DNA of 64,000 nt from a virus. The DNA is taken from IMG/VR virus record IMGVR_UViG_3300037524_000649; one strand, 5' to 3'. Positions 8,309-50,100 of the stretch are shown here, one piece after another (within the stretch, counting starts at the first letter, position 1; every line of letters begins with the position of its first letter). A program made the translations under genes and the position numbers. Under the pieces are notes generated by a model. The model saw nothing but the letters and a program-made list of their open reading frames with translations, made no database searches and was not told the DNA's origin.

Positions 8309-9082
8309 ATGGCAAAACCACCGAAGGCCCCTCCGGTCCAGGGCTCGCAGCTCGCGTTCAACGACGCCAAGCAGACCACTGCCGACTGCTTCGCAAACAT
8401 GACCGAGAAGCAGCGGCTCTATTGCGAAGCCCGACTAACCGGGCTCGTCCCACTGCGCGCCGCACTGCGTGCCGGGCTCGCGGACCCGGAAGTTAATGCC
8501 TACCGGATGGAGCGCCACCCGAAGGTGCAAGCGGCGCTCGCGGCAGCCCGGCGCATGGTCGTCGAGAAGTTCGACGTATCCCGCGAGGACGTGCTCCGAG
8601 GCATGTTCGACGCCGTTCAGGCGAGTGGGAACGCTACCGAGCTGGTAGCCGCGTGGCGTGAGATTGGCCGAATCGTTGGTGCCTACGAGGCCCTCAAGGT
8701 CGACGTGATGCACCGCATCGAGGACGTGACCCTCGACAAGCTCCAGGCGCTGTCTACTAAGGAGTTGATCGAGCTGTCGGCCGGGAAGGACTTCATCGTC
8801 GAGGCTGAGGACGACGCCTATGGCGATGAGTACGACAAGATCCGCGAGGCCCTTGGCAGACCGGCCTACCCACGCAAGCCCAGGAAGAATGATGGCGACG
8901 ACGGACGAGACGGAGACGACGGAGACGACGGAGACGCCGACGGATACGACGACGACGACGGAATCGACCCGGCCGACTATCCGAGCGAACCCGCAGAAAG
9001 GGGAGTGGAAGTACACGGAGGACCATGTCCCGACCCCGAAGACGTGCCGGGTGTGCGGGACGACCTACCCGCGGTCGGGTAA
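8309..9082 (+). CDS. terS: terminase small subunit with acidic DGDDG tail
   Basis: N-terminal HTH-like segment (TEKQRLYCEARLTG...AALRAG), positioned before terL. Confidence 0.8.
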   Translation: MAKPPKAPPVQGSQLAFNDAKQTTADCFANMTEKQRLYCEARLTGLVPLRAALRAGLADPEVNAYRMERHPKVQAALAAARRMVVEKFDVSREDVLRGMFDAVQASGNATELVAAWREIGRIVGAYEALKVDVMHRIEDVTLDKLQALSTKELIELSAGKDFIVEAEDDAYGDEYDKIREALGRPAYPRKPRKNDGDDGRDGDDGDDGDADGYDDDDGIDPADYPSEPAERGVEVHGGPCPDPEDVPGVRDDLPAVG

Positions 9083-11834
9083 GCCGTACTTCAATGGCGG
9101 CCGTATGGCGGTGTGCAACACCTGCGTCTCCGCGCGCTCTGGGGACGTCATGGCAGCCAAGCTGGAAGAGCGTCGGATCAAGAAGCTGGCCTCCGAAGAG
9201 CGCAAGAAGCTGAAGCAGGAAGCCCGGCTGCAGCGCAAGCGCGACCTCCGCAAGCGCAAGGTGCGCGAGGCGGAGAAGGCAAAGGAGGTTGCGAAGGAAG
9301 ACCGCCGTGCTTCGTTCCAAGTGGCTCGTGGCCGGCGCCGGGTGAATCTCGTAAAGCGCGAGTTGGCGGCGCGGACGTTGGCGCAGCGGCATCTCATGGC
9401 GTTCGTGATGCGACAGCACCGCGGCTACCAGGCCGGGCTGTTCCACCGCGACGTGTGCCGCCGGCTGGACAAGTTCGCCAAGGACGTGATCGCCGGCAAG
9501 AGCCCGCGGCTGATCCTCCAGGCGCCGCCACGCCACGGCAAACAGATCGCGGACGACACCCCGGTGCTGACCACAAAGGGGTGGACCACGCACGGAGCGC
9601 TGCGTACTGGGGACGAGGTGTTTGGCCCCGATGGCGTGCCCACGCAAGTCGTGGCCGTGGGCGAGCCAGCCCTCCAGAACTGCGAAGTGGAGTTCACGGA
9701 CGGGTCGGTTGTCCGTACCCACGAGAACCACGAGTGGACGGTCTACGATCGGTGTGGAGATTCGGGGTGGAGGACCGTCGAGACCAAATACCTGGAGCAG
9801 CGGACCCTGTGGTCGGGGCCGCGCGGCAAACGGGGCGGCAGGGCCGCCCTGCAGTTGCCACACGTTCACGCCCTTCAGTTGCCCGAGGCCGCCCTGCCGC
9901 TGGATCCCTACGTGCTCGGAGTTTGGCTCGGCGACGGGCGCTCCTGCAACGCCGACTTTTGCTGGCACGCCGACGACGCAGCCGTGGCCGTGGCGGTCAA
10001 CGAGGCGCAGCCGATAACTCGGCGCTGGGTACATCGCACCACGGGCGTGAACTACGGGTTCATGGCGGGGGTAAAGCCCATTTTGCGGCGGCTGGGGGTG
10101 CTGAACGCCAAGCACGTTCCGGCAGAGTACGAGCTGTCGAGCATCGAGCAGCGGTTGGCGCTTCTCGCTGGCCTGATCGATACCGACGGGCACGTAGAGC
10201 TTGGTACTCAGCGCGTGCGCATAGCGACCGTCAGCGACGTGCTGGCCAGCGGGATCGAGCGCCTGGTCCGCAGTCTCGGGTGGCGAGCCAACCGTTACAC
10301 GCAGCAGCCGGCGCTGTCGACCAGTGGCGTGCAGGGGCGGCATCCGGTGCACTACGTGTCATTTACGCCAGATCGCGCCATACCGACACGCCTGCCGCGC
10401 AAGCGCATCGTTGCCCGTGAGAGTTCACAGCGTCGCCTCGGCATCGCGGCGGTGCGCCGCGGTGCGCCGGCCATCGGTCGGTGCATTCAGGTCGCGCGCG
10501 CAGACGGGCTGTATCTGGTGGGGGAGCAGCTGATACCCACCCACAACTCGCTCCTGGCAAGCGTGTACTTTCCGGCGTGGTTCCTCGGCAACAACCCCGA
10601 CAAGGAGATCATCGCCACCAGTTACTCCGGCTCGCTGGCCCTGACGTTCAGCCGCAAGGTGCGCGAGCTGCTGCGCGAGCAGACGTATCAGGCGGTCTTC
10701 CCGCGCGCCGTACTGGACAAGGACAACCAGAACGCCGAGGGGTGGATGACGACCCGCAAGGGCGGGTACGTGCCGGCAGGTGTCGGCGGCGCCATCACCG
10801 GCAAGGGCGCCCACATCCTGGTGATCGACGACCCGCTGAAGAACGCCGAGGACGCGTCCTCGACGCTGATCAAGGACAGCATCTGGGAGTGGTACACGTC
10901 GACCGCGTACACGCGCTTGGCACCGGGTGGCGGGGTCATCGTCATTGCGACCCGGTGGGCTGAGGACGACCTCTCCGGTCGGCTCGAAGCACTGAGCGAG
11001 AGTGGCGAGGGGGACAAGTTCCAGATCATTAGATACCCCGCCATCGCCACCGAGGACGAGCCGTACCGCAAGGCTGGCGAGGCGCTGCACCCCGAGCGCT
11101 ACTCCGTCGAGCAGCTGCGCAAGATCGAGCGGGCCGTCGGCCCGTCGGTGTGGCAGGCGCTGTACCAGCAGCAGCCCATGCCCGACACGGGCAGCTACTT
11201 CACCAGGGACATGTTCCGCTGGTACACGGGCGCGGCGCCCGGCCGGCTGGCCGTCTACGCCGGGTGGGACCTGGCAATCGGCAAGGGGGACCGCAACGAC
11301 TTCACGGCCGGTGTGGTGGTCGGCATCGACCAGGACGACGGCATGTGGGTGCTCGACGTGCGGCACGGGCGGTGGGACAGCTTCGAGATCGTGGAGCAGA
11401 TGCTGGACGTCCAGCGCGTGTGGAAGCCCGAGGTCCACGGCATCGAGAAGAGTCAGGTGTCCATGGCCATCGGCCCGTACCTTGAGCAGCGCATGTACGA
11501 GGACAAGGCGTATGAGATGGTGGTGCGAGACTTGCCTCCGGGCCGTCGTGACAAGGAGCTGCGGGCACGCGCGATCCAGGGTCGCATGCGCCAGGGTCGT
11601 GTGCAGTTCCCCAAGGACAAGCACTGGGCCGACGGGATCTACGCTGAGATGCTCAAGTTCCCCAACGGGGCACACGACGACCGTGTCGATGCACTGGCTT
11701 GGATCGGACTGATGCTCCAGGAGATGAACGTGCCGCTGGAGCCGCGCGAGCCGGAGTACGCCAAGGGCTCGTGGAAAGAGAAGCTGGAGAAGCTCGTCAA
11801 CAACCCAACCAAGCGCGGCTCGATGGCCGCGTAG
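8892..11834 (+). CDS. terL: terminase large subunit precursor with intein and an N-terminal CxxC..CxxC extension
   Basis: Walker A PPRHGK|S split by the intein, Walker B LVIDD, RNase H-like nuclease (GWDLA, HDDRVDA). Start is uncertain (8820, 8889, 8892 or later). Confidence 0.92.
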   Translation: MATTDETETTETTETPTDTTTTTESTRPTIRANPQKGEWKYTEDHVPTPKTCRVCGTTYPRSGKPYFNGGRMAVCNTCVSARSGDVMAAKLEERRIKKLASEERKKLKQEARLQRKRDLRKRKVREAEKAKEVAKEDRRASFQVARGRRRVNLVKRELAARTLAQRHLMAFVMRQHRGYQAGLFHRDVCRRLDKFAKDVIAGKSPRLILQAPPRHGKQIADDTPVLTTKGWTTHGALRTGDEVFGPDGVPTQVVAVGEPALQNCEVEFTDGSVVRTHENHEWTVYDRCGDSGWRTVETKYLEQRTLWSGPRGKRGGRAALQLPHVHALQLPEAALPLDPYVLGVWLGDGRSCNADFCWHADDAAVAVAVNEAQPITRRWVHRTTGVNYGFMAGVKPILRRLGVLNAKHVPAEYELSSIEQRLALLAGLIDTDGHVELGTQRVRIATVSDVLASGIERLVRSLGWRANRYTQQPALSTSGVQGRHPVHYVSFTPDRAIPTRLPRKRIVARESSQRRLGIAAVRRGAPAIGRCIQVARADGLYLVGEQLIPTHNSLLASVYFPAWFLGNNPDKEIIATSYSGSLALTFSRKVRELLREQTYQAVFPRAVLDKDNQNAEGWMTTRKGGYVPAGVGGAITGKGAHILVIDDPLKNAEDASSTLIKDSIWEWYTSTAYTRLAPGGGVIVIATRWAEDDLSGRLEALSESGEGDKFQIIRYPAIATEDEPYRKAGEALHPERYSVEQLRKIERAVGPSVWQALYQQQPMPDTGSYFTRDMFRWYTGAAPGRLAVYAGWDLAIGKGDRNDFTAGVVVGIDQDDGMWVLDVRHGRWDSFEIVEQMLDVQRVWKPEVHGIEKSQVSMAIGPYLEQRMYEDKAYEMVVRDLPPGRRDKELRARAIQGRMRQGRVQFPKDKHWADGIYAEMLKFPNGAHDDRVDALAWIGLMLQEMNVPLEPREPEYAKGSWKEKLEKLVNNPTKRGSMAA
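9543..10547 (+). mobile_element. class 3 intein (Gln1, WCT motif) with LAGLIDADG homing endonuclease, 335 aa
   Basis: Starts QIADDTPV and ends IPTHN|S. Block B THENHEW, block F GRCIQV, LAGLIDADG motifs VLGVWLGDG and LLAGLIDTDG. Confidence 0.92.
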
Positions 11835-46890: not shown

Positions 46891-47274
46891 GTGCATGACG
46901 ACGTGCAAAAGGACGTGCAAATCCACATCCACGAGCATGTAGGACCCCTCCGCGAGCGGGTCTCGAAGCTCGAAGGGCGTCTGGATGTGCATGATCGCGA
47001 GCTGTCCTTGCTACGGCAGGGTCTGGATTCACTGCGAGACCGCATTGACCAGACCAGAGAGGCGGTGTTGGACGCAATATCGACGCACGCCGCTAACGAG
47101 GTGGGCAAGCACGATGCCGTCGACAAGCGCATCTCGTGCTTGGCCGAGGCGGCAGCCGAGACAAAAGAGCAGATCCGGTCGGTCAAGGCGTGGATCGTGG
47201 GTATTGGTCTTGGCGCCGGCAGCGTAATCGCTGCGCTTACCCTCCTCGAAAAGTTTGGTGTCTTCCACCGCTGA
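46891..47274 (+). CDS. coiled-coil protein with C-terminal transmembrane helix (lysis-associated?)
   Basis: ORF track. AWIVGIGLGAGSVIAALTLL is hydrophobic. Confidence 0.7.
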   Translation: MHDDVQKDVQIHIHEHVGPLRERVSKLEGRLDVHDRELSLLRQGLDSLRDRIDQTREAVLDAISTHAANEVGKHDAVDKRISCLAEAAAETKEQIRSVKAWIVGIGLGAGSVIAALTLLEKFGVFHR

Positions 47275-47285
47275 CCGGAGGCCCT

Positions 47286-47720
47286 ATGGCTGTCCCGCTC
47301 CTCATAGGCGCGATGCCTGCGATTCTTGATGTCGGCCTGAAGGTCATCGATAAGCTCTTCCCGGATCCCAAGGCGGCCGAGTCGGCCAAGATGGAGCTGC
47401 TTCGCATGCAGCTCGACGGGCGTCTGGCCGAGCTAGCGGCGGAGACCAAGATCGCCGAAGCGCAGACGCAGACCAACAACATCGAAGCGACCAGCGCCAA
47501 CATCTGGCAGGCCGGCTGGCGCCCCGGCGCCGGTTGGGTGGGTGTCTTCGGGCTGGCATACGCCGCGGTTGTCCAGCCGTTCTTGAGCTGGTTCTCCGCC
47601 AGTCAGGGGTGGCCCCTGCCGCCGACGCTCGACGACTCGTTGCTGGGGTTCATCCTGACCGGAATGCTGGGTCTTGGCGCCTACCGCAGCTTCGAGAAGA
47701 CCAAAGGGGTCGCGTCGTGA
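47286..47720 (+). CDS. holin (3TM / GTA-release type)
   Basis: IDKLFPDP and WQAGWRPGAGW motifs, MLGLGAYRSFEK terminus. Confidence 0.8.
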   Translation: MAVPLLIGAMPAILDVGLKVIDKLFPDPKAAESAKMELLRMQLDGRLAELAAETKIAEAQTQTNNIEATSANIWQAGWRPGAGWVGVFGLAYAAVVQPFLSWFSASQGWPLPPTLDDSLLGFILTGMLGLGAYRSFEKTKGVAS

Positions 47721-48079
47721 TCGAGCAGTTGCGGATCCTCGGCAAGACCTACCAGATCGTCCGCACCGAGCACGTCGACGGCCTGTCGGCAGGCGAGTAC
47801 TTCGGCTCCTGCGATCACACGCGCAGCATCCTGACGATCAACGCCCGGCAAGAGATCCAGCAGGAGCGCGATACCGTGCTGCACGAGGTGCTGCACGCGA
47901 TTGACTACACCATGCAGCTCGGCCTCAAGGAGCGCCAGGTCCACGCACTTGGGTCTGGGCTCCTGGCGGTGCTCACCGACAACCCCGAGCTGGCGTTCTA
48001 CCTGGCCGGGCATCTGGTTGAGGTCGTCGACGAGAAGCCGGCGACCAAGAAAACGCAGCGACGCCGCAAGGCTACCTAG
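47717..48079 (+). CDS. small zincin-like metallopeptidase-domain protein
   Basis: DTVLHEVLHAI followed by a downstream E in ERQV. Confidence 0.75.
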   Translation: MIEQLRILGKTYQIVRTEHVDGLSAGEYFGSCDHTRSILTINARQEIQQERDTVLHEVLHAIDYTMQLGLKERQVHALGSGLLAVLTDNPELAFYLAGHLVEVVDEKPATKKTQRRRKAT

Positions 48080-48107
48080 CGACCGGGCCGGTTGGGGCTC
48101 CGGCTTT

Positions 48108-48131
48108 GGCCCGCTTAGGCGGGCCTTTTTT
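48108..48131 (+). terminator. Rho-independent terminator ending the late arm
   Basis: GGCCCGC-TTAG-GCGGGCC-TTTTTT. Confidence 0.85.
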
Positions 48132-48226
48132 CTGTTCCGCGCACTCCGCTAAGATCTTGTTCGGAAAAGGCCGAAATGTATGCTCGTTGCGGAACAAATA
48201 CTAACGAAGTCGTTGGTTATTAAGGC

Positions 48227-48379
48227 TTACCCCGAGGACTGCAAATCCGTGCACCTCGGTTCGATTCCGGGCTCAGAGCCTAGCGGGATTTCCTTTCGCG
48301 GGCGTCCGCCCGCGTCGTAGTAGTAGAAGACCTTCTTACCGCGCGGCCGAGCACGGAGCCGAGGTGGGAGTGACGACAT
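48227..48379 (-). pseudogene. int: truncated tyrosine integrase (arm-binding N-terminus only) reading into the att fragment
   Basis: MSSLPPRLRARPRGKKVFYYYDAGGRPRKEIPLGS then EPGIEPRCTDLQSSG*, the latter being the reverse complement of tRNA sequence. Confidence 0.8.
48236..48271 (+). other. tRNA-Cys(GCA) fragment (anticodon arm to T-arm), attP-like remnant
   Basis: GGACTGCAAATCC-GTGCAC-CTCGGTTCGATTCCGGG. No pairing acceptor stem and no D-arm. Confidence 0.8.
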
Positions 48380-48560
48380 CGGGTGACCAGGTGGTCTGGG
48401 GAGCATAGGCTGCTCCCGTTACCTGGTCTTTTGCAACTACTGGATGCCCGCGACCGTTCACGCGATAGGGTATTCTCATCGCTTTGAGCTGATCGATCTG
48501 CCTTTTTGCCTGCTTGTAGCCGGTCAGCTCGGCCAGCTCAAGGCGGGTGAGGAATATCAT
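48336..48560 (-). CDS. excisionase-like protein (DUF4224-type)
   Basis: FLTRLELAELTGYKQAKRQIDQL...IPYRVNGRGHPVV. Overlaps the integrase start. Confidence 0.85.
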   Translation of the reverse strand: MIFLTRLELAELTGYKQAKRQIDQLKAMRIPYRVNGRGHPVVAKDQVTGAAYAPQTTWSPDVVTPTSAPCSAAR

Positions 48561-48700
48561 GCGAAGCGTAGCTCCTGCGGAACGATGATGAACTGCGGGG
48601 GCGGGGGCGGGGCCAGGTACGCGTTGTAAATCCACCCAGCCAGCAGATTCCCGAGCGCAGCACTCAGTACTAGGGACAGCGCGAAGACAACAGCCCTCAC
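48557..48700 (-). CDS. 47-aa N-terminal-TM protein (MRAVVFALSLVLSAALGNLLAGWIY...PPPPP)
   Basis: Hand-translated, with GTGA and ATGA coupling on both sides. Confidence 0.6.
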   Translation of the reverse strand: MRAVVFALSLVLSAALGNLLAGWIYNAYLAPPPPPQFIIVPQELRFA

Positions 48701-49260
48701 GCGAGCCCCCGGAGCAGTTCGAGCGCGTCAGTCAGGTGCTGCGTTACCTGCACGAGCGCTGTACTCGGCTCGGGTTGCTCTGTACCGACCGTCTCGACCG
48801 CGGTAGCCCAGCACTCGCCCCAGGACTCGGGGTGCGGCTTGCCGGGACGCCAGTTGCGGATGTAGTACGCCCAGCCCTCTTCCTGAGTGCGCGGCAGCGG
48901 GCCGTTGTCACTGTAGATGAGCAGACGCGCGAAGCCTGCAGCCAGCAGATCGTTGTGCGGGAACACCTGCCACAGCTCATCCGGGTCGTTCGGCAGGTTC
49001 AGCTCCTCGACGAGCTGGCTGGCCATGAGGCTGGTGCGGGTGTGCCGGAGCACGCCCTTGAAGCCGCCGTTGAACTCGAACTGCCAGTACGAGCGCGCCG
49101 GTCCGCGGATCTGGGCCCGGTGCGTTGCGCGCGATTCCTGCAGAGCGATTGCCAGGCTCAGCGTCTCTGCCGGCGCACCGCCAAGCTCCCGATCGGACAG
49201 GAGGCTCAGTACTCGGTGCGCCGGCCTGATCGCCGCGTTCAGCAGGAGTTCTGGTGACAT
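48697..49260 (-). CDS. lysozyme-like endolysin
   Basis: IALQESR..HRAQ.RGPARSYWQFE, D.LAA.FARLL and WRPGKPH motifs. Confidence 0.75.
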   Translation of the reverse strand: MSPELLLNAAIRPAHRVLSLLSDRELGGAPAETLSLAIALQESRATHRAQIRGPARSYWQFEFNGGFKGVLRHTRTSLMASQLVEELNLPNDPDELWQVFPHNDLLAAGFARLLIYSDNGPLPRTQEEGWAYYIRNWRPGKPHPESWGECWATAVETVGTEQPEPSTALVQVTQHLTDALELLRGLA

Positions 49261-49406
49261 TTCGCAGCTTCCTCGGTGAAGAACTTGCGGTCAGCGTGTT
49301 CCTGCTGCTTGCCCACGTTCCACGAGGACACCGGGCGGTGGTATCCCATGACCCTGGACCAAACTTCGCAGCGCGTCCTCTCTTCGTCTTTCAGCTGAGT
49401 CGTCAC
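49239..49406 (-). CDS. 55-aa stand-alone NrdD C-terminal (glycyl radical loop) mini-protein
   Basis: Hand-translated MTTQLKDEERTRCEVWSRVMGYHRPVSSWNVGKQQEHADR. Coupled GTG start and GGAG/GAAGG RBS. Confidence 0.8.
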   Translation of the reverse strand: MTTQLKDEERTRCEVWSRVMGYHRPVSSWNVGKQQEHADRKFFTEEAAKCHQNSC

Positions 49407-49849
49407 GTACCTTCTCCTTCTGTGTAGAACTCCACGATGACGCCGGCTTCGCCGAAGATCCGCCCCGCGACTTCGAAGCTGGTTGCCCAGCGTCCTTCAT
49501 CCTCGGGGAGCGGGGCGTAGACCTTGCGAATTCCGGCCTGGACAATCGCTTTTGCGCACTCGTTGCACGGGTGGAGTGCCGTAACCAGCAGAGAGCACCC
49601 CTCAGTGCTTACCCCGGAGCGCGCGGCGTTGCAGATCGCGTTCACCTCGGCGTGCACGACGAACTTGTACTTGGTCGGCTTGTCGTGCCACCGTGCGGGG
49701 TCGTCGGACACGTCCCGCGGAAATCCGTTCCATCCCGTCGCACGAATCTCGTTCGCCGGGCCGATGATCAGGGCGCCGACCTTGGTGCTTGGGTCTTTGG
49801 ACAGGGCAGCGACTGCTTCGGCGATCCCTACGAGGGACAGCGGGTTCAT
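49403..49849 (-). CDS. dCMP deaminase
   Basis: SKDPSTKVGA, GWNGFPR, HAEVNAI and HPCNECAKAI. Confidence 0.92.
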   Translation of the reverse strand: MNPLSLVGIAEAVAALSKDPSTKVGALIIGPANEIRATGWNGFPRDVSDDPARWHDKPTKYKFVVHAEVNAICNAARSGVSTEGCSLLVTALHPCNECAKAIVQAGIRKVYAPLPEDEGRWATSFEVAGRIFGEAGVIVEFYTEGEGT

Positions 49850-50100
49850 TTGAAGTTCCAGTCGTACAGGTGGTGTTCGCCGGTTTGGGTGGCGACAGTT
49901 CCGATCCAGGACATGGTCGGGACGAGGCGAGGCGACGGCTCGCCTTCGGGGACCAGGGGCATATCCGGGTGCCCGGAGAGCCACAGGGTGACCATCCCCC
50001 CCACCGGGTCCATCTGGATGCCCCGCACGGTCACCTCGGGCGGCAATTGCAGCAACTCGACCAGCTGTGCGTTGGACAACTCGACGTAACCACCTTTCAT
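49846..50100 (-). CDS. hypothetical protein
   Basis: ATGA coupling. Confidence 0.6.
   Translation of the reverse strand: MKGGYVELSNAQLVELLQLPPEVTVRGIQMDPVGGMVTLWLSGHPDMPLVPEGEPSPRLVPTMSWIGTVATQTGEHHLYDWNFK

What the first reader, a model, noticed from the sequence alone, without database searches (positions are those of the whole stretch)
48227..48560. Lysogeny module decapitated: integrase N-terminus fused directly onto a tRNA-Cys attP fragment
Seen: downstream of an intact DUF4224-type xis, an ORF begins like a tyrosine-integrase arm-binding domain (LPPRLRARPRGKKVFYYYDAGGRPRKEIPLGS). Near 48272-48280 it switches abruptly into the reverse complement of a tRNA-Cys T-arm and anticodon arm, then stops. 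The tRNA 3' acceptor end and the whole catalytic domain are absent, and no repressor gene was recognised. Inference: one deletion of roughly 1 kb removed the integrase core and part of attP, turning a temperate ancestor that integrated at tRNA-Cys into an obligately lytic or extrachromosomal phage. The retained xis and 50-aa arm-binding peptide might interfere with resident prophages. The fragment also gives a handle for host prediction.
Basis: partly seen in the sequence, partly recalled or inferred. Interest (0 to 1): 0.7.

Follow-up and report, generated by a model that had tools for sequence, protein, structure and literature searches.

The report
Phage integrase stump fused to tRNA-Cys
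An uncultured phage of about 65 kb keeps an intact excisionase gene, but only the first 44 codons of its integrase, and these are joined directly to 41 bases of a bacterial tRNA-Cys gene, which is the scar of a deletion of about 1 kb that removed its ability to integrate; this is a well-documented example of a known way for temperate phages to become lytic.

Summary
An intact DUF4224 excisionase gene lies at 48336-48560 (-). A 59-codon ORF at 48227-48406 (-) overlaps its end. Codons 1-44 of that ORF are the N-terminus of a lambda-type tyrosine integrase, 76% identical to an intact 333-aa integrase (database-wide E 2e-13). At 48272-48277 the ORF runs into 41 nt (48236-48276, +) that are identical to positions 28-68 of a tRNA-Cys(GCA) gene from a gammaproteobacterial MAG.

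- **No catalytic domain.** No integrase catalytic domain was found in the 64 kb window or in the next 1 kb.
- **Intact relative.** A syntenic metagenomic relative has the full integrase in exactly this position.
- **Relatives' layout.** Relatives show xis, then int, then an arm of about 60-80 nt, then an antisense tRNA 3' fragment. This is the layout a single deletion needs.
- **Not a mis-assembly.** The junction is base-identical in three assemblies, and two more contigs cross it.
- **Phage type.** The phage resembles Pseudomonas phage KPP25, a group regarded as lytic. A related 68.7 kb prophage with its own int and xis sits in a bacterial chromosome, so temperate ancestry is credible.

Lysogeny-module decay of this kind is known, so interest is modest.

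The parts
48336..48560 (-). Intact excisionase gene (xis, DUF4224, 74 aa). AGGAG lies 12 nt upstream of its ATG.
   Evidence: Pfam PF13986 E 6.6e-14. PHROG excisionase phrog_8896 E 3e-17. Full-length alignment with 3 homologues at 57-66% identity. The homologue in phiBtTUL1a lies directly upstream of int.
48275..48406 (-). Integrase remnant: codons 1-44 of a lambda-type tyrosine integrase (part of the arm-binding N-domain). The start codon and a GGGAG Shine-Dalgarno sequence are retained, and the ORF overlaps the xis 3' end by 71 nt.
   Evidence: 35/46 identical to intact integrase P0007, database-wide E 2.1e-13. tblastn of two full integrases against the window matches only their residues 10-46, at 48263-48373.
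48227..48274 (-). Tail of the 59-codon ORF (EPGIEPRCTDLQSSG, then stop), produced by reading the tRNA fragment in antisense. It is not integrase sequence.
   Evidence: Translation. Homology to integrases ends at S44. These bases are identical to the tRNA-Cys gene.
48236..48276 (+). attP core remnant: 41 nt identical to tRNA-Cys(GCA) positions 28-68 (anticodon stem-loop, variable loop, T arm, and 5 of 7 nt of the 3' acceptor strand).
   Evidence: The 34-nt sub-pattern scanned across the genome-contig collection (one genome for each of 185,579 bacterial and archaeal species) matched exactly in only one of them. ARAGORN calls that gene tRNA-Cys. Identity is 41/41. There is a single copy in the window and none in shuffles.
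48272..48277 (.). Deletion junction. tRNA identity ends at 48276. The Ser44 codon of int occupies 48275-48277. Up to 4 nt (TCAG) could be microhomology.
   Evidence: Read directly and the alignment. The microhomology assumes the ancestor had a GAC Asp codon and is not shown.
48132..48235 (.). Retained attP arm on the anticodon side of the core. It carries the candidate Int arm-type site TTGCGGAAC (48187-48195), inverted variants at 48134-48141 and 48144-48153, and GGTTATTAAG at 48215-48224.
   Evidence: The same 9-mer family, TTGCGGA[AG]C, lies about 45-55 nt from the core in L096, and the motif lies about 55-60 nt (by eye) from the core in phiBtTUL1a. It also occurs beside int in L095, L132 and Xfas53. 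Function as binding sites is inferred.
48108..48135 (+). Intrinsic terminator that closes the rightward late/lysis operon.
   Evidence: A 7-bp all-GC stem followed by a T run.
47717..48079 (+). Last gene of the late operon (phrog_1233 family, 120 aa), convergent with xis and the int stump.
   Evidence: PHROG E 1.5e-15. Gene calls on the identical contigs L039 and L040.
48697..49260 (-). Conserved early-operon gene upstream of xis (phrog_3108, 187 aa). It is the synteny anchor shared with the relative that has an intact int.
   Evidence: PHROG E 2.2e-32. A 191-aa gene occupies the same position on the relative's contig.

Best explanation
The window is almost the whole genome (at least 65 kb) of an uncultured KPP25-like podophage whose ancestor was temperate.

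Ancestral state (inferred). The ancestor carried an integration cassette at the point where the early (leftward) and late (rightward) operons converge. The cassette read xis, then int, then a P' arm, then an attP core that copied the 3' part of the host tRNA-Cys gene in antisense to int, then a P arm.

The event (inferred). One illegitimate recombination event of about 0.95-1.0 kb joined int codon 44/45 to tRNA position 68. It happened either in replicating phage DNA or as an aberrant excision from the prophage; the two cannot be told apart from the product. It removed about 290 codons of int (core-binding and catalytic domains), the P' arm, and the last 6 nt of the tRNA-derived core.

What remains. 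The xis gene is intact, a 59-codon ORF can probably still be translated, and the core remnant and P arm survive. Without a recombinase and without one arm, the phage cannot integrate or excise on its own, so it most likely replicates lytically.

Shown versus inferred. The anatomy, the homologies, the intact allele in a relative and the reproducible junction are shown. The ancestral layout, the deletion size, the mechanism and the lifestyle are inferred.
For: - **Stump and xis.** The stump matches integrase N-termini, and xis is a full-length DUF4224 protein.
- **No catalytic domain.** None was detected in the window by tblastn with two full integrases. Only small ORFs lie in the 1,003 nt past the window end.
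- **tRNA identity.** 41/41 identity to a real tRNA-Cys gene.
- **Intact allele.** A syntenic relative has a 333-aa PF00589 integrase overlapping the xis end, followed by 310 bp and convergent genes.
- **Layout.** phiBtTUL1a and L132 read xis, int, an arm of about 60-80 nt with TTGCGGA sites, then an antisense tRNA 3' end with CCA nearest int. Convergent int/tRNA pairs also occur in L114 and L093/L094.
- **Arm motifs.** The retained arm has the same motifs in the same relative positions as L096 and phiBtTUL1a.
- **Reproducible junction.** It is 100% identical in L039 (an NCBI MAG contig) and matches L040 (a JGI metagenome) apart from a single mismatch in 8,813 nt. By their coordinates, two Logan contigs extend 89 nt past xis, to 48247, and so cross it.
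- **Temperate kin.** Genome G209 carries a syntenic 68.7 kb prophage. Its major capsid protein is 62-64% identical. It has a lambda-type int and an Exc-like xis at the end of the early operon, abuts leuS, and is bounded by a 17-bp direct repeat.
- **Recent event.** The stump and the core show no decay: no frameshift or stop, and 41/41 identity.
Against: - DNA of the closest relative could not be fetched, so the breakpoints are not mapped against an intact allele, and the size and the microhomology are estimates.
- One tRNA-Cys element with a related integrase (L096) has the other layout, with int on the anticodon side and in the tRNA sense. If the ancestor had looked like that, an inversion plus a deletion would be needed.
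- All contigs carrying the junction seem to come from one or two related sample series, so they are not independent populations, and no read data could be examined.
- DNA beyond the window start could not be seen.
- KPP25 itself has no cassette at this position.
Confidence: 0.85

Rival explanations
1. Assembly artefact or minority variant. The real, dominant phage has a full integrase and a complete attP, and the contig shows a chimeric join or a defective sub-population.
For: Two Logan contigs stop at 48247, so their last 31-mer is 48247-48277 (coordinates). This means the assembly graph branches inside the tRNA core. An intact-attP variant of the phage in the same sample would cause such a branch. 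All junction-bearing contigs appear to come from related samples.
Against: The join shares at most 4-5 nt between its two sides, which is far too short for a k-mer assembler to jump across. The same junction appears in contigs from three sources (the window's own record, an NCBI MAG and JGI), and the two Logan contigs cross it. The host tRNA-Cys gene explains the graph branch equally well.
Confidence: 0.05
2. Secondary acquisition. A strictly lytic KPP25-like lineage picked up an already truncated xis/int'/att fragment by recombination with a resident prophage or an attR junction at the host tRNA-Cys locus. On this reading it did not lose int from its own cassette.
For: The cultured relatives KPP25, phiR18 and CRPAP1904 have no int or xis. 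KPP25 has only 160 bp at the convergence point. PMC13340246 calls them lytic because they lack an integrase. TP-778L shows that truncated int genes can arise through recombination with prophage remnants (PMC3952083).
Against: The relative with the intact cassette shares the flanking early genes in the same order. A related prophage has int and xis at the same genome position. Both facts indicate that the cassette position is ancestral in this sub-clade. The attP arm next to the late-operon terminator is of the phage type, not host flank.
Confidence: 0.05
3. Retained on purpose. After the deletion, xis, the 59-aa arm-domain peptide and the arm sites are kept by selection as a working module. 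Possible roles are forcing or blocking excision of resident prophages or satellites that use a cognate integrase, or letting the phage borrow such an integrase in trans.
For: The xis gene is intact with a good ribosome-binding site. The stump keeps its start codon and a Shine-Dalgarno sequence and shows no decay. The arm-type motifs are retained.
Against: Lack of decay is equally expected for a recent deletion. The stump has only 44 of the roughly 60-65 residues of a lambda-type arm-binding domain and gives no Pfam hit. The P' arm needed for a functional attP is gone. No comparative data show conservation of the truncated form in diverged phages, since only near-identical contigs carry it.
Confidence: 0.05

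Closest known systems
xis-int-attP(tRNA) cassettes of Burkholderia phage phiBtTUL1a (Stanholtvirus) and Xylella phage Xfas53
   Same: The integrase family is the same: 47-50% identity to the intact relative P0007, with N-termini that align with the stump. In phiBtTUL1a, a DUF4224-like xis lies directly upstream, int is followed by a short arm with TTGCGGA-type repeats, and an antisense tRNA 3' fragment follows.
   Different: Those phages have a complete integrase and a complete attP, and they have unrelated virion modules. Here only 44 codons, one arm and 41 nt of the core remain, and the target is tRNA-Cys.
Virulent derivatives of temperate phages made by damage to the lysogeny module (S. thermophilus TP-778L with a truncated int, PMC3952083; Oenococcus phage OE33PA, PMC6256464)
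   Same: A phage that propagates lytically carries a broken or incomplete integration module that betrays a temperate ancestor.
   Different: TP-778L arose by homologous recombination between a complete int copy and a remnant int copy. OE33PA keeps int but lacks attP. Here a single illegitimate deletion joins the int N-terminus to the inside of the attP core, in a Gram-negative environmental podophage, and no culture data exist.
Pseudomonas phage KPP25 / Kochitakasuvirus
   Same: Genome size is about 64-65 kb. Both have convergent early and late operons and related capsid, portal, terminase, polymerase, helicase and primase genes. The major capsid protein is 57% identical.
   Different: KPP25 has no xis, int or att at the convergence point. 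The window phage is too distant for DNA-level matches, and it carries rIIA/rIIB genes that were not found in the related G209 prophage.
Lambda Int arm-binding domain (Pfam PF09003) and P/P' arm-type sites
   Same: The motif pattern L-P-P-x-L...Y-Y-Y-x-x-x-G-x-x-x-E-x-x-L-G matches the N-terminal arm-binding region of lambda-type integrases. Repeated 9-mers flank the core, like arm sites. The resemblance to lambda Int rests on general knowledge. The G209 prophage integrase does hit PF09003.
   Different: The stump itself gives no Pfam hit and is shorter than the domain. Binding to the repeats is untested.

Membership tests
Tyrosine recombinase / phage integrase (PF00589) | C-terminal catalytic domain carrying the R-K-H-R-H-Y active-site residues | tested here: not met
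   There is no Pfam hit for the 59-aa ORF. tblastn of two full-length relatives against the whole window matches only their residues 10-46. The ORF ends 15 codons after the homology stops.
Tyrosine recombinase / phage integrase (PF00589) | N-terminus homologous to that of bona fide family members, in the position downstream of xis | tested here: met
   76% identity over 46 aa to P0007, a 333-aa PF00589 protein, with database-wide E 2.1e-13. The same overlap between xis and int is seen on the relative's contig.
DUF4224 excisionase (PF13986) | Full-length match above the Pfam gathering score, with the gene located immediately upstream of an integrase gene | tested here: met
   52 bits against a cutoff of 22, covering profile positions 1-43 of 45. 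PHROG excisionase families also match. Homologues sit upstream of int in the P0004/P0007 contig, L095, L132 and phiBtTUL1a.
tRNA-gene attP (identity block running from the anticodon region to the 3' end of a tRNA gene) | Exact identity to the 3' part of a host tRNA gene, starting at the anticodon stem-loop | tested here: met
   41/41 identity to tRNA-Cys positions 28-68 of MAG JALORY010000001.
tRNA-gene attP (identity block running from the anticodon region to the 3' end of a tRNA gene) | The block reaches the tRNA 3' end so that integration restores the gene, and the core is flanked by two arms | tested here: not met
   Identity stops at position 68, so the final CCTCCA of the tRNA gene is missing. 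The sequence beyond that point is int coding sequence, so the second arm is absent.
KPP25-like podophages (Kochitakasuvirus and relatives) | Shared virion and replication gene set and genome architecture | tested here: met
   The major capsid protein is 57% identical to those of KPP25, phiR18 and CRPAP1904. The convergent operon layout matches KPP25. There is no nucleotide-level similarity, so this phage is not a member of the genus itself.

The most novel reading that the evidence does not exclude
The deletion product is not junk. The intact Xis, a translated 59-aa arm-domain mini-Int and the retained arm sites may form a selected module. A now-lytic phage could use it to manipulate the excision or integration of resident prophages or satellites that use the cognate integrase. 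Alternatively, the phage could borrow such an integrase in trans at tRNA-Cys.
Probability: 0.06. Interest if true: 0.7.

Novelty: new member of a known kind. Interest (0 to 1): 0.35.

Why it matters
- **Loss of lysogeny, pinned down.** This is a clean molecular snapshot of how a temperate phage loses lysogeny. A single deletion has both endpoints located to within a few bases, and an intact allele exists in a relative.
- **Lifestyle of KPP25-like phages.** The KPP25-like group is regarded as lytic, and its cultured members are being characterised as antibacterial agents. This case shows that the group has temperate and recently ex-temperate members that carry interchangeable int/xis cassettes. 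That matters when lifestyle is inferred from genus membership.
- **Host prediction.** The 41-nt tRNA-Cys fragment gives a specific host lead for an uncultured phage. Its 34-nt core was found in only one of 185,579 species representatives. The related prophage lies in a genome of the same bacterial order as that MAG.

Tried and rejected
**Searches that found nothing useful**
- blastn of 47000-50000 against GenBank phages gave no match.
- Rfam scans of the region, including a cut-out of the fragment alone, did not call a tRNA. ARAGORN finds no tRNA in the window. The identification therefore rests on direct identity to an ARAGORN-called gene.
- IMG/VR scans with xis and with the core found nothing.
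- The 35 IMG/VR loci holding phrog_3108 homologues are distant and not syntenic. Only L005 and L007 have an int/xis pair, and there it is on the opposite strand.
- The metagenome scan with a xis alignment gave only homologues at 56% identity or less.
- Integrase P0007 has only two weak homologues in 380 genomes of the putative host order.
- The relative's convergent 150-aa gene is not a phrog_1233 homologue, so it could not be used to measure the deletion exactly.

**Data that could not be obtained**
- DNA of the key relative's contig and of several Logan contigs was not retrievable.
- Contigs reaching past the window start were not found.

**Hypotheses rejected**
- A prophage/host junction, or an SSV-type split integrase. 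Both flanks are phage genes, the core is single-copy, and no tRNA 5' half is present.
- An Int-catalysed deletion at the core. The join lies in the acceptor stem, outside the anticodon loop and the T loop, where such crossovers occur according to general knowledge of tRNA att sites.
- The bases CCT just after the join as leftover tRNA 3' end. They belong to the conserved Leu-Gly-Ser codons of int.

Full report
**What is in the sequence.** Three features lie between the last late gene (47717-48079, +, phrog_1233) with its terminator (48108-48135) and the early operon on the minus strand.
- A 74-codon gene at 48336-48560 (-) is a full-length DUF4224 excisionase. It scores E 6.6e-14 in Pfam (52 bits against a cutoff of 22) and E 3e-17 in PHROG excisionase families. 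It aligns end to end with its three closest homologues.
- A 59-codon ORF at 48227-48406 (-) overlaps the xis end by 71 nt. It has its own GGGAG ribosome-binding site.
- On the plus strand, 48236-48276 is a 41-nt block that looks like tRNA.

**The ORF is an integrase stump.**
- tblastn against GenBank phages hit only annotated integrases, those of Xylella phage Xfas53 and four Burkholderia Stanholtvirus phages. In the Burkholderia phages the xis homologue sits directly upstream of int.
- A search of 5.8 billion proteins for longer relatives returned six proteins, all PF00589 integrases of 328-387 aa. The best is P0007, with 35 of 46 residues identical and E 2.1e-13.
- Homology runs from the start codon to ...EIPLGS (residue 44). 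Every relative continues with D-Y/F and about 290 more residues. The window ORF instead continues with EPGIEPRCTDLQSSG and a stop.
- tblastn of two full integrases against the whole window matched only their residues 10-46, at 48263-48373. Nothing resembling the catalytic domain was found anywhere else.

**The 41 nt are a tRNA-Cys 3' fragment.**
- A 34-nt sub-pattern has one exact match in the genome-contig collection, which holds one genome for each of 185,579 bacterial and archaeal species. The match lies in a gammaproteobacterial MAG (JALORY010000001), inside a gene that ARAGORN calls tRNA-Cys(GCA).
- Identity is 41/41 over tRNA positions 28-68. This covers the anticodon stem-loop, the variable loop, the whole T arm and the first 5 of the 7 bases of the 3' acceptor strand.
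- The tRNA gene ends CTCAG-CCTCCA. The window reads CTCAG-AGCCTAGC, where AGA-GCC-TAG is the complement of the conserved Leu-Gly-Ser codons of int. The join therefore lies at 48272-48277. At most 4 nt (TCAG) could be microhomology, and only if the ancestor used GAC for the next Asp codon.
- The block occurs once in the window and never in shuffles. ARAGORN and Rfam do not call it, because it is only part of a tRNA.
- tRNA-Cys genes of the MAG's relatives, and of genome G209 (see below), share the same T arm and acceptor stem. They differ at 2-3 positions in the anticodon stem and variable loop.

**Is it a deletion?** The best evidence is a syntenic relative.
- The closest xis (66% identity) lies on a 7,028-bp JGI contig with the same gene order as the window: dGTP diphosphohydrolase, dCMP deaminase, a small NrdD-like gene, a phrog_3108 homologue, a small ORF, then xis. 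Next comes the intact 333-aa integrase P0007, which overlaps the xis end by about 60 nt. It is followed by 310 bp and convergent genes. That contig's DNA could not be fetched, so the breakpoints cannot be mapped base by base.
- The layout needed for a single deletion is documented in relatives. In phiBtTUL1a and in Logan contig L132, xis and int are followed by about 60-80 nt carrying repeated TTGCGGA-type sites. After that comes the 3' end of a tRNA in antisense, with its CCA end nearest int. Convergent int/tRNA pairs also occur in L114 and L093/L094.
- The arm kept in the window (48132-48235) carries TTGCGGAAC about 45 nt from the core, plus inverted variants further out. This matches the corresponding arms of phiBtTUL1a and of the tRNA-Cys element L096.
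- Removing about 290 codons, an arm of about 80-110 nt and 6 nt of the tRNA gives roughly 0.95-1.0 kb. This is an inferred figure.
- One caveat: L096, the only other tRNA-Cys element in hand, has int on the other side of attP. If the ancestor had looked like that, an inversion would also be needed. The two relatives in which xis and int are followed by the attachment region (phiBtTUL1a and contig L132) argue against this.
- The join lies in the acceptor stem, outside the loops where integrases normally cut tRNA att sites (general knowledge). Illegitimate recombination, in the phage or during an aberrant excision, is therefore more likely than an Int-catalysed event.

**Artefact?**
- The junction region is 100% identical in an NCBI MAG contig (L039) and matches a JGI contig from another sample (L040) apart from one mismatch in 8,813 nt.
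- Two Logan contigs end 89 nt after the xis stop, at 48247, so they cross the junction (coordinates).
- Their common end means the last 31-mer is 48247-48277. The assembly graph therefore branches as soon as a k-mer lies wholly inside the tRNA block. Some other molecule with the same core must be present in those samples. It could be the host tRNA-Cys gene or an intact-attP variant, and I cannot tell which.
- All these contigs look like one sample series, so population-level fixation is untested.
- A contig that extends 1,003 nt beyond the window end has only small ORFs. DNA before window position 1 could not be seen.

**Context.**
- The phage encodes rIIA/rIIB, a VirE-type primase, a helicase, DNA polymerase A, exonucleases, terminase, portal and capsid proteins. 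Its capsid protein is 57% identical to those of Pseudomonas phages KPP25, phiR18 and CRPAP1904. These phages are regarded as lytic because they lack an integrase (PMC13340246). KPP25 has only 160 bp at the equivalent convergence point, and no KPP25-like GenBank phage carries this int or xis.
- Genome G209, in the same order as the tRNA-matching MAG, contains a syntenic relative in its chromosome. The capsid is 62-64% identical, and many early and late genes are 40-60% identical. A lambda-type integrase (PF09003 plus PF00589) and an Exc-like excisionase sit at the end of the early operon, abutting leuS. A 17-bp direct repeat lies 68.7 kb apart; about 5e-4 such repeats would be expected by chance.
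- Temperate members of this clade therefore exist, and the convergence point holds int/xis cassettes of different families in different members.
- Twenty unassigned ORFs from the early (- strand) side of the window phage and its divergent control region gave no repressor-like Pfam domain. This scan was not exhaustive.

**Comparison with what is known.** Lytic derivatives of temperate phages with damaged integration modules are well documented. TP-778L has a truncated int produced by recombination with a remnant (PMC3952083). OE33PA keeps a lysogeny module but has no attP (PMC6256464). This case is another member of that kind. What stands out is the precise int-to-attP-core join and the phage group in which it occurs. 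The intact xis and the undecayed stump fit a recent event. A selected function for xis plus the stump peptide is possible but unsupported.

**Verdict.** Novelty is low to moderate. The finding's main uses are as a host-prediction handle and as evidence that KPP25-like phages include temperate lineages.

Noticed in passing
G209:C1:348272-416981 (loci L127-L131): A prophage of about 68.7 kb, syntenic with the window phage, lies in a bacterial chromosome. Its capsid is 62-64% identical. It has a lambda-type integrase and an Exc-like excisionase next to the 3' end of leuS, and it is bounded by the 17-bp direct repeat CTGCTCAATCTGGTCGT. KPP25-like phages are regarded as lytic because no integrase is found in their genomes.
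   Followed up: partly
G209:C1:368600-382700: The G209 prophage has about 14 kb between the polymerase gene and the 338-aa gene homologue. This stretch has no counterpart in the window phage. It includes ORFs of 550 and 1021 aa and a stretch of lower GC3. Conversely, no rIIA/rIIB homologues were found in the prophage.
   Followed up: no
window 48247 (ends of two Logan contigs from SRR12684590 and SRR12684591): Both contigs stop exactly where the next 31-mer would lie wholly inside the tRNA block. This implies that a second molecule with the same core, either the host tRNA-Cys gene or an intact attP, is present in those samples.
   Followed up: partly
L096:1058-7237 (GCA_040395795.1, JBEBPS010000037.1): An element of about 6 kb is integrated at a tRNA-Cys gene. 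It is bounded by the full gene and a 3' partial copy. Its related integrase (P0012) lies on the anticodon side of attP, which is the opposite arrangement to phiBtTUL1a and L132.
   Followed up: partly
window 8820-11834: The terminase large subunit ORF is 1004 aa, and its PHROG matches are split into two stretches, which is consistent with an inserted element such as an intein.
   Followed up: no
window 49239-49406; G209:C1:398030-398176: A 55-aa gene has a precomputed PF13597 (NRDD) hit. It is conserved at 65% identity in the G209 prophage, but at a different genome position.
   Followed up: no
window 48557-48700: A 47-codon hydrophobic ORF with a PPPPP tract lies between the phrog_3108 gene and xis. 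The relative's contig has a 61-aa gene in the same slot.
   Followed up: no
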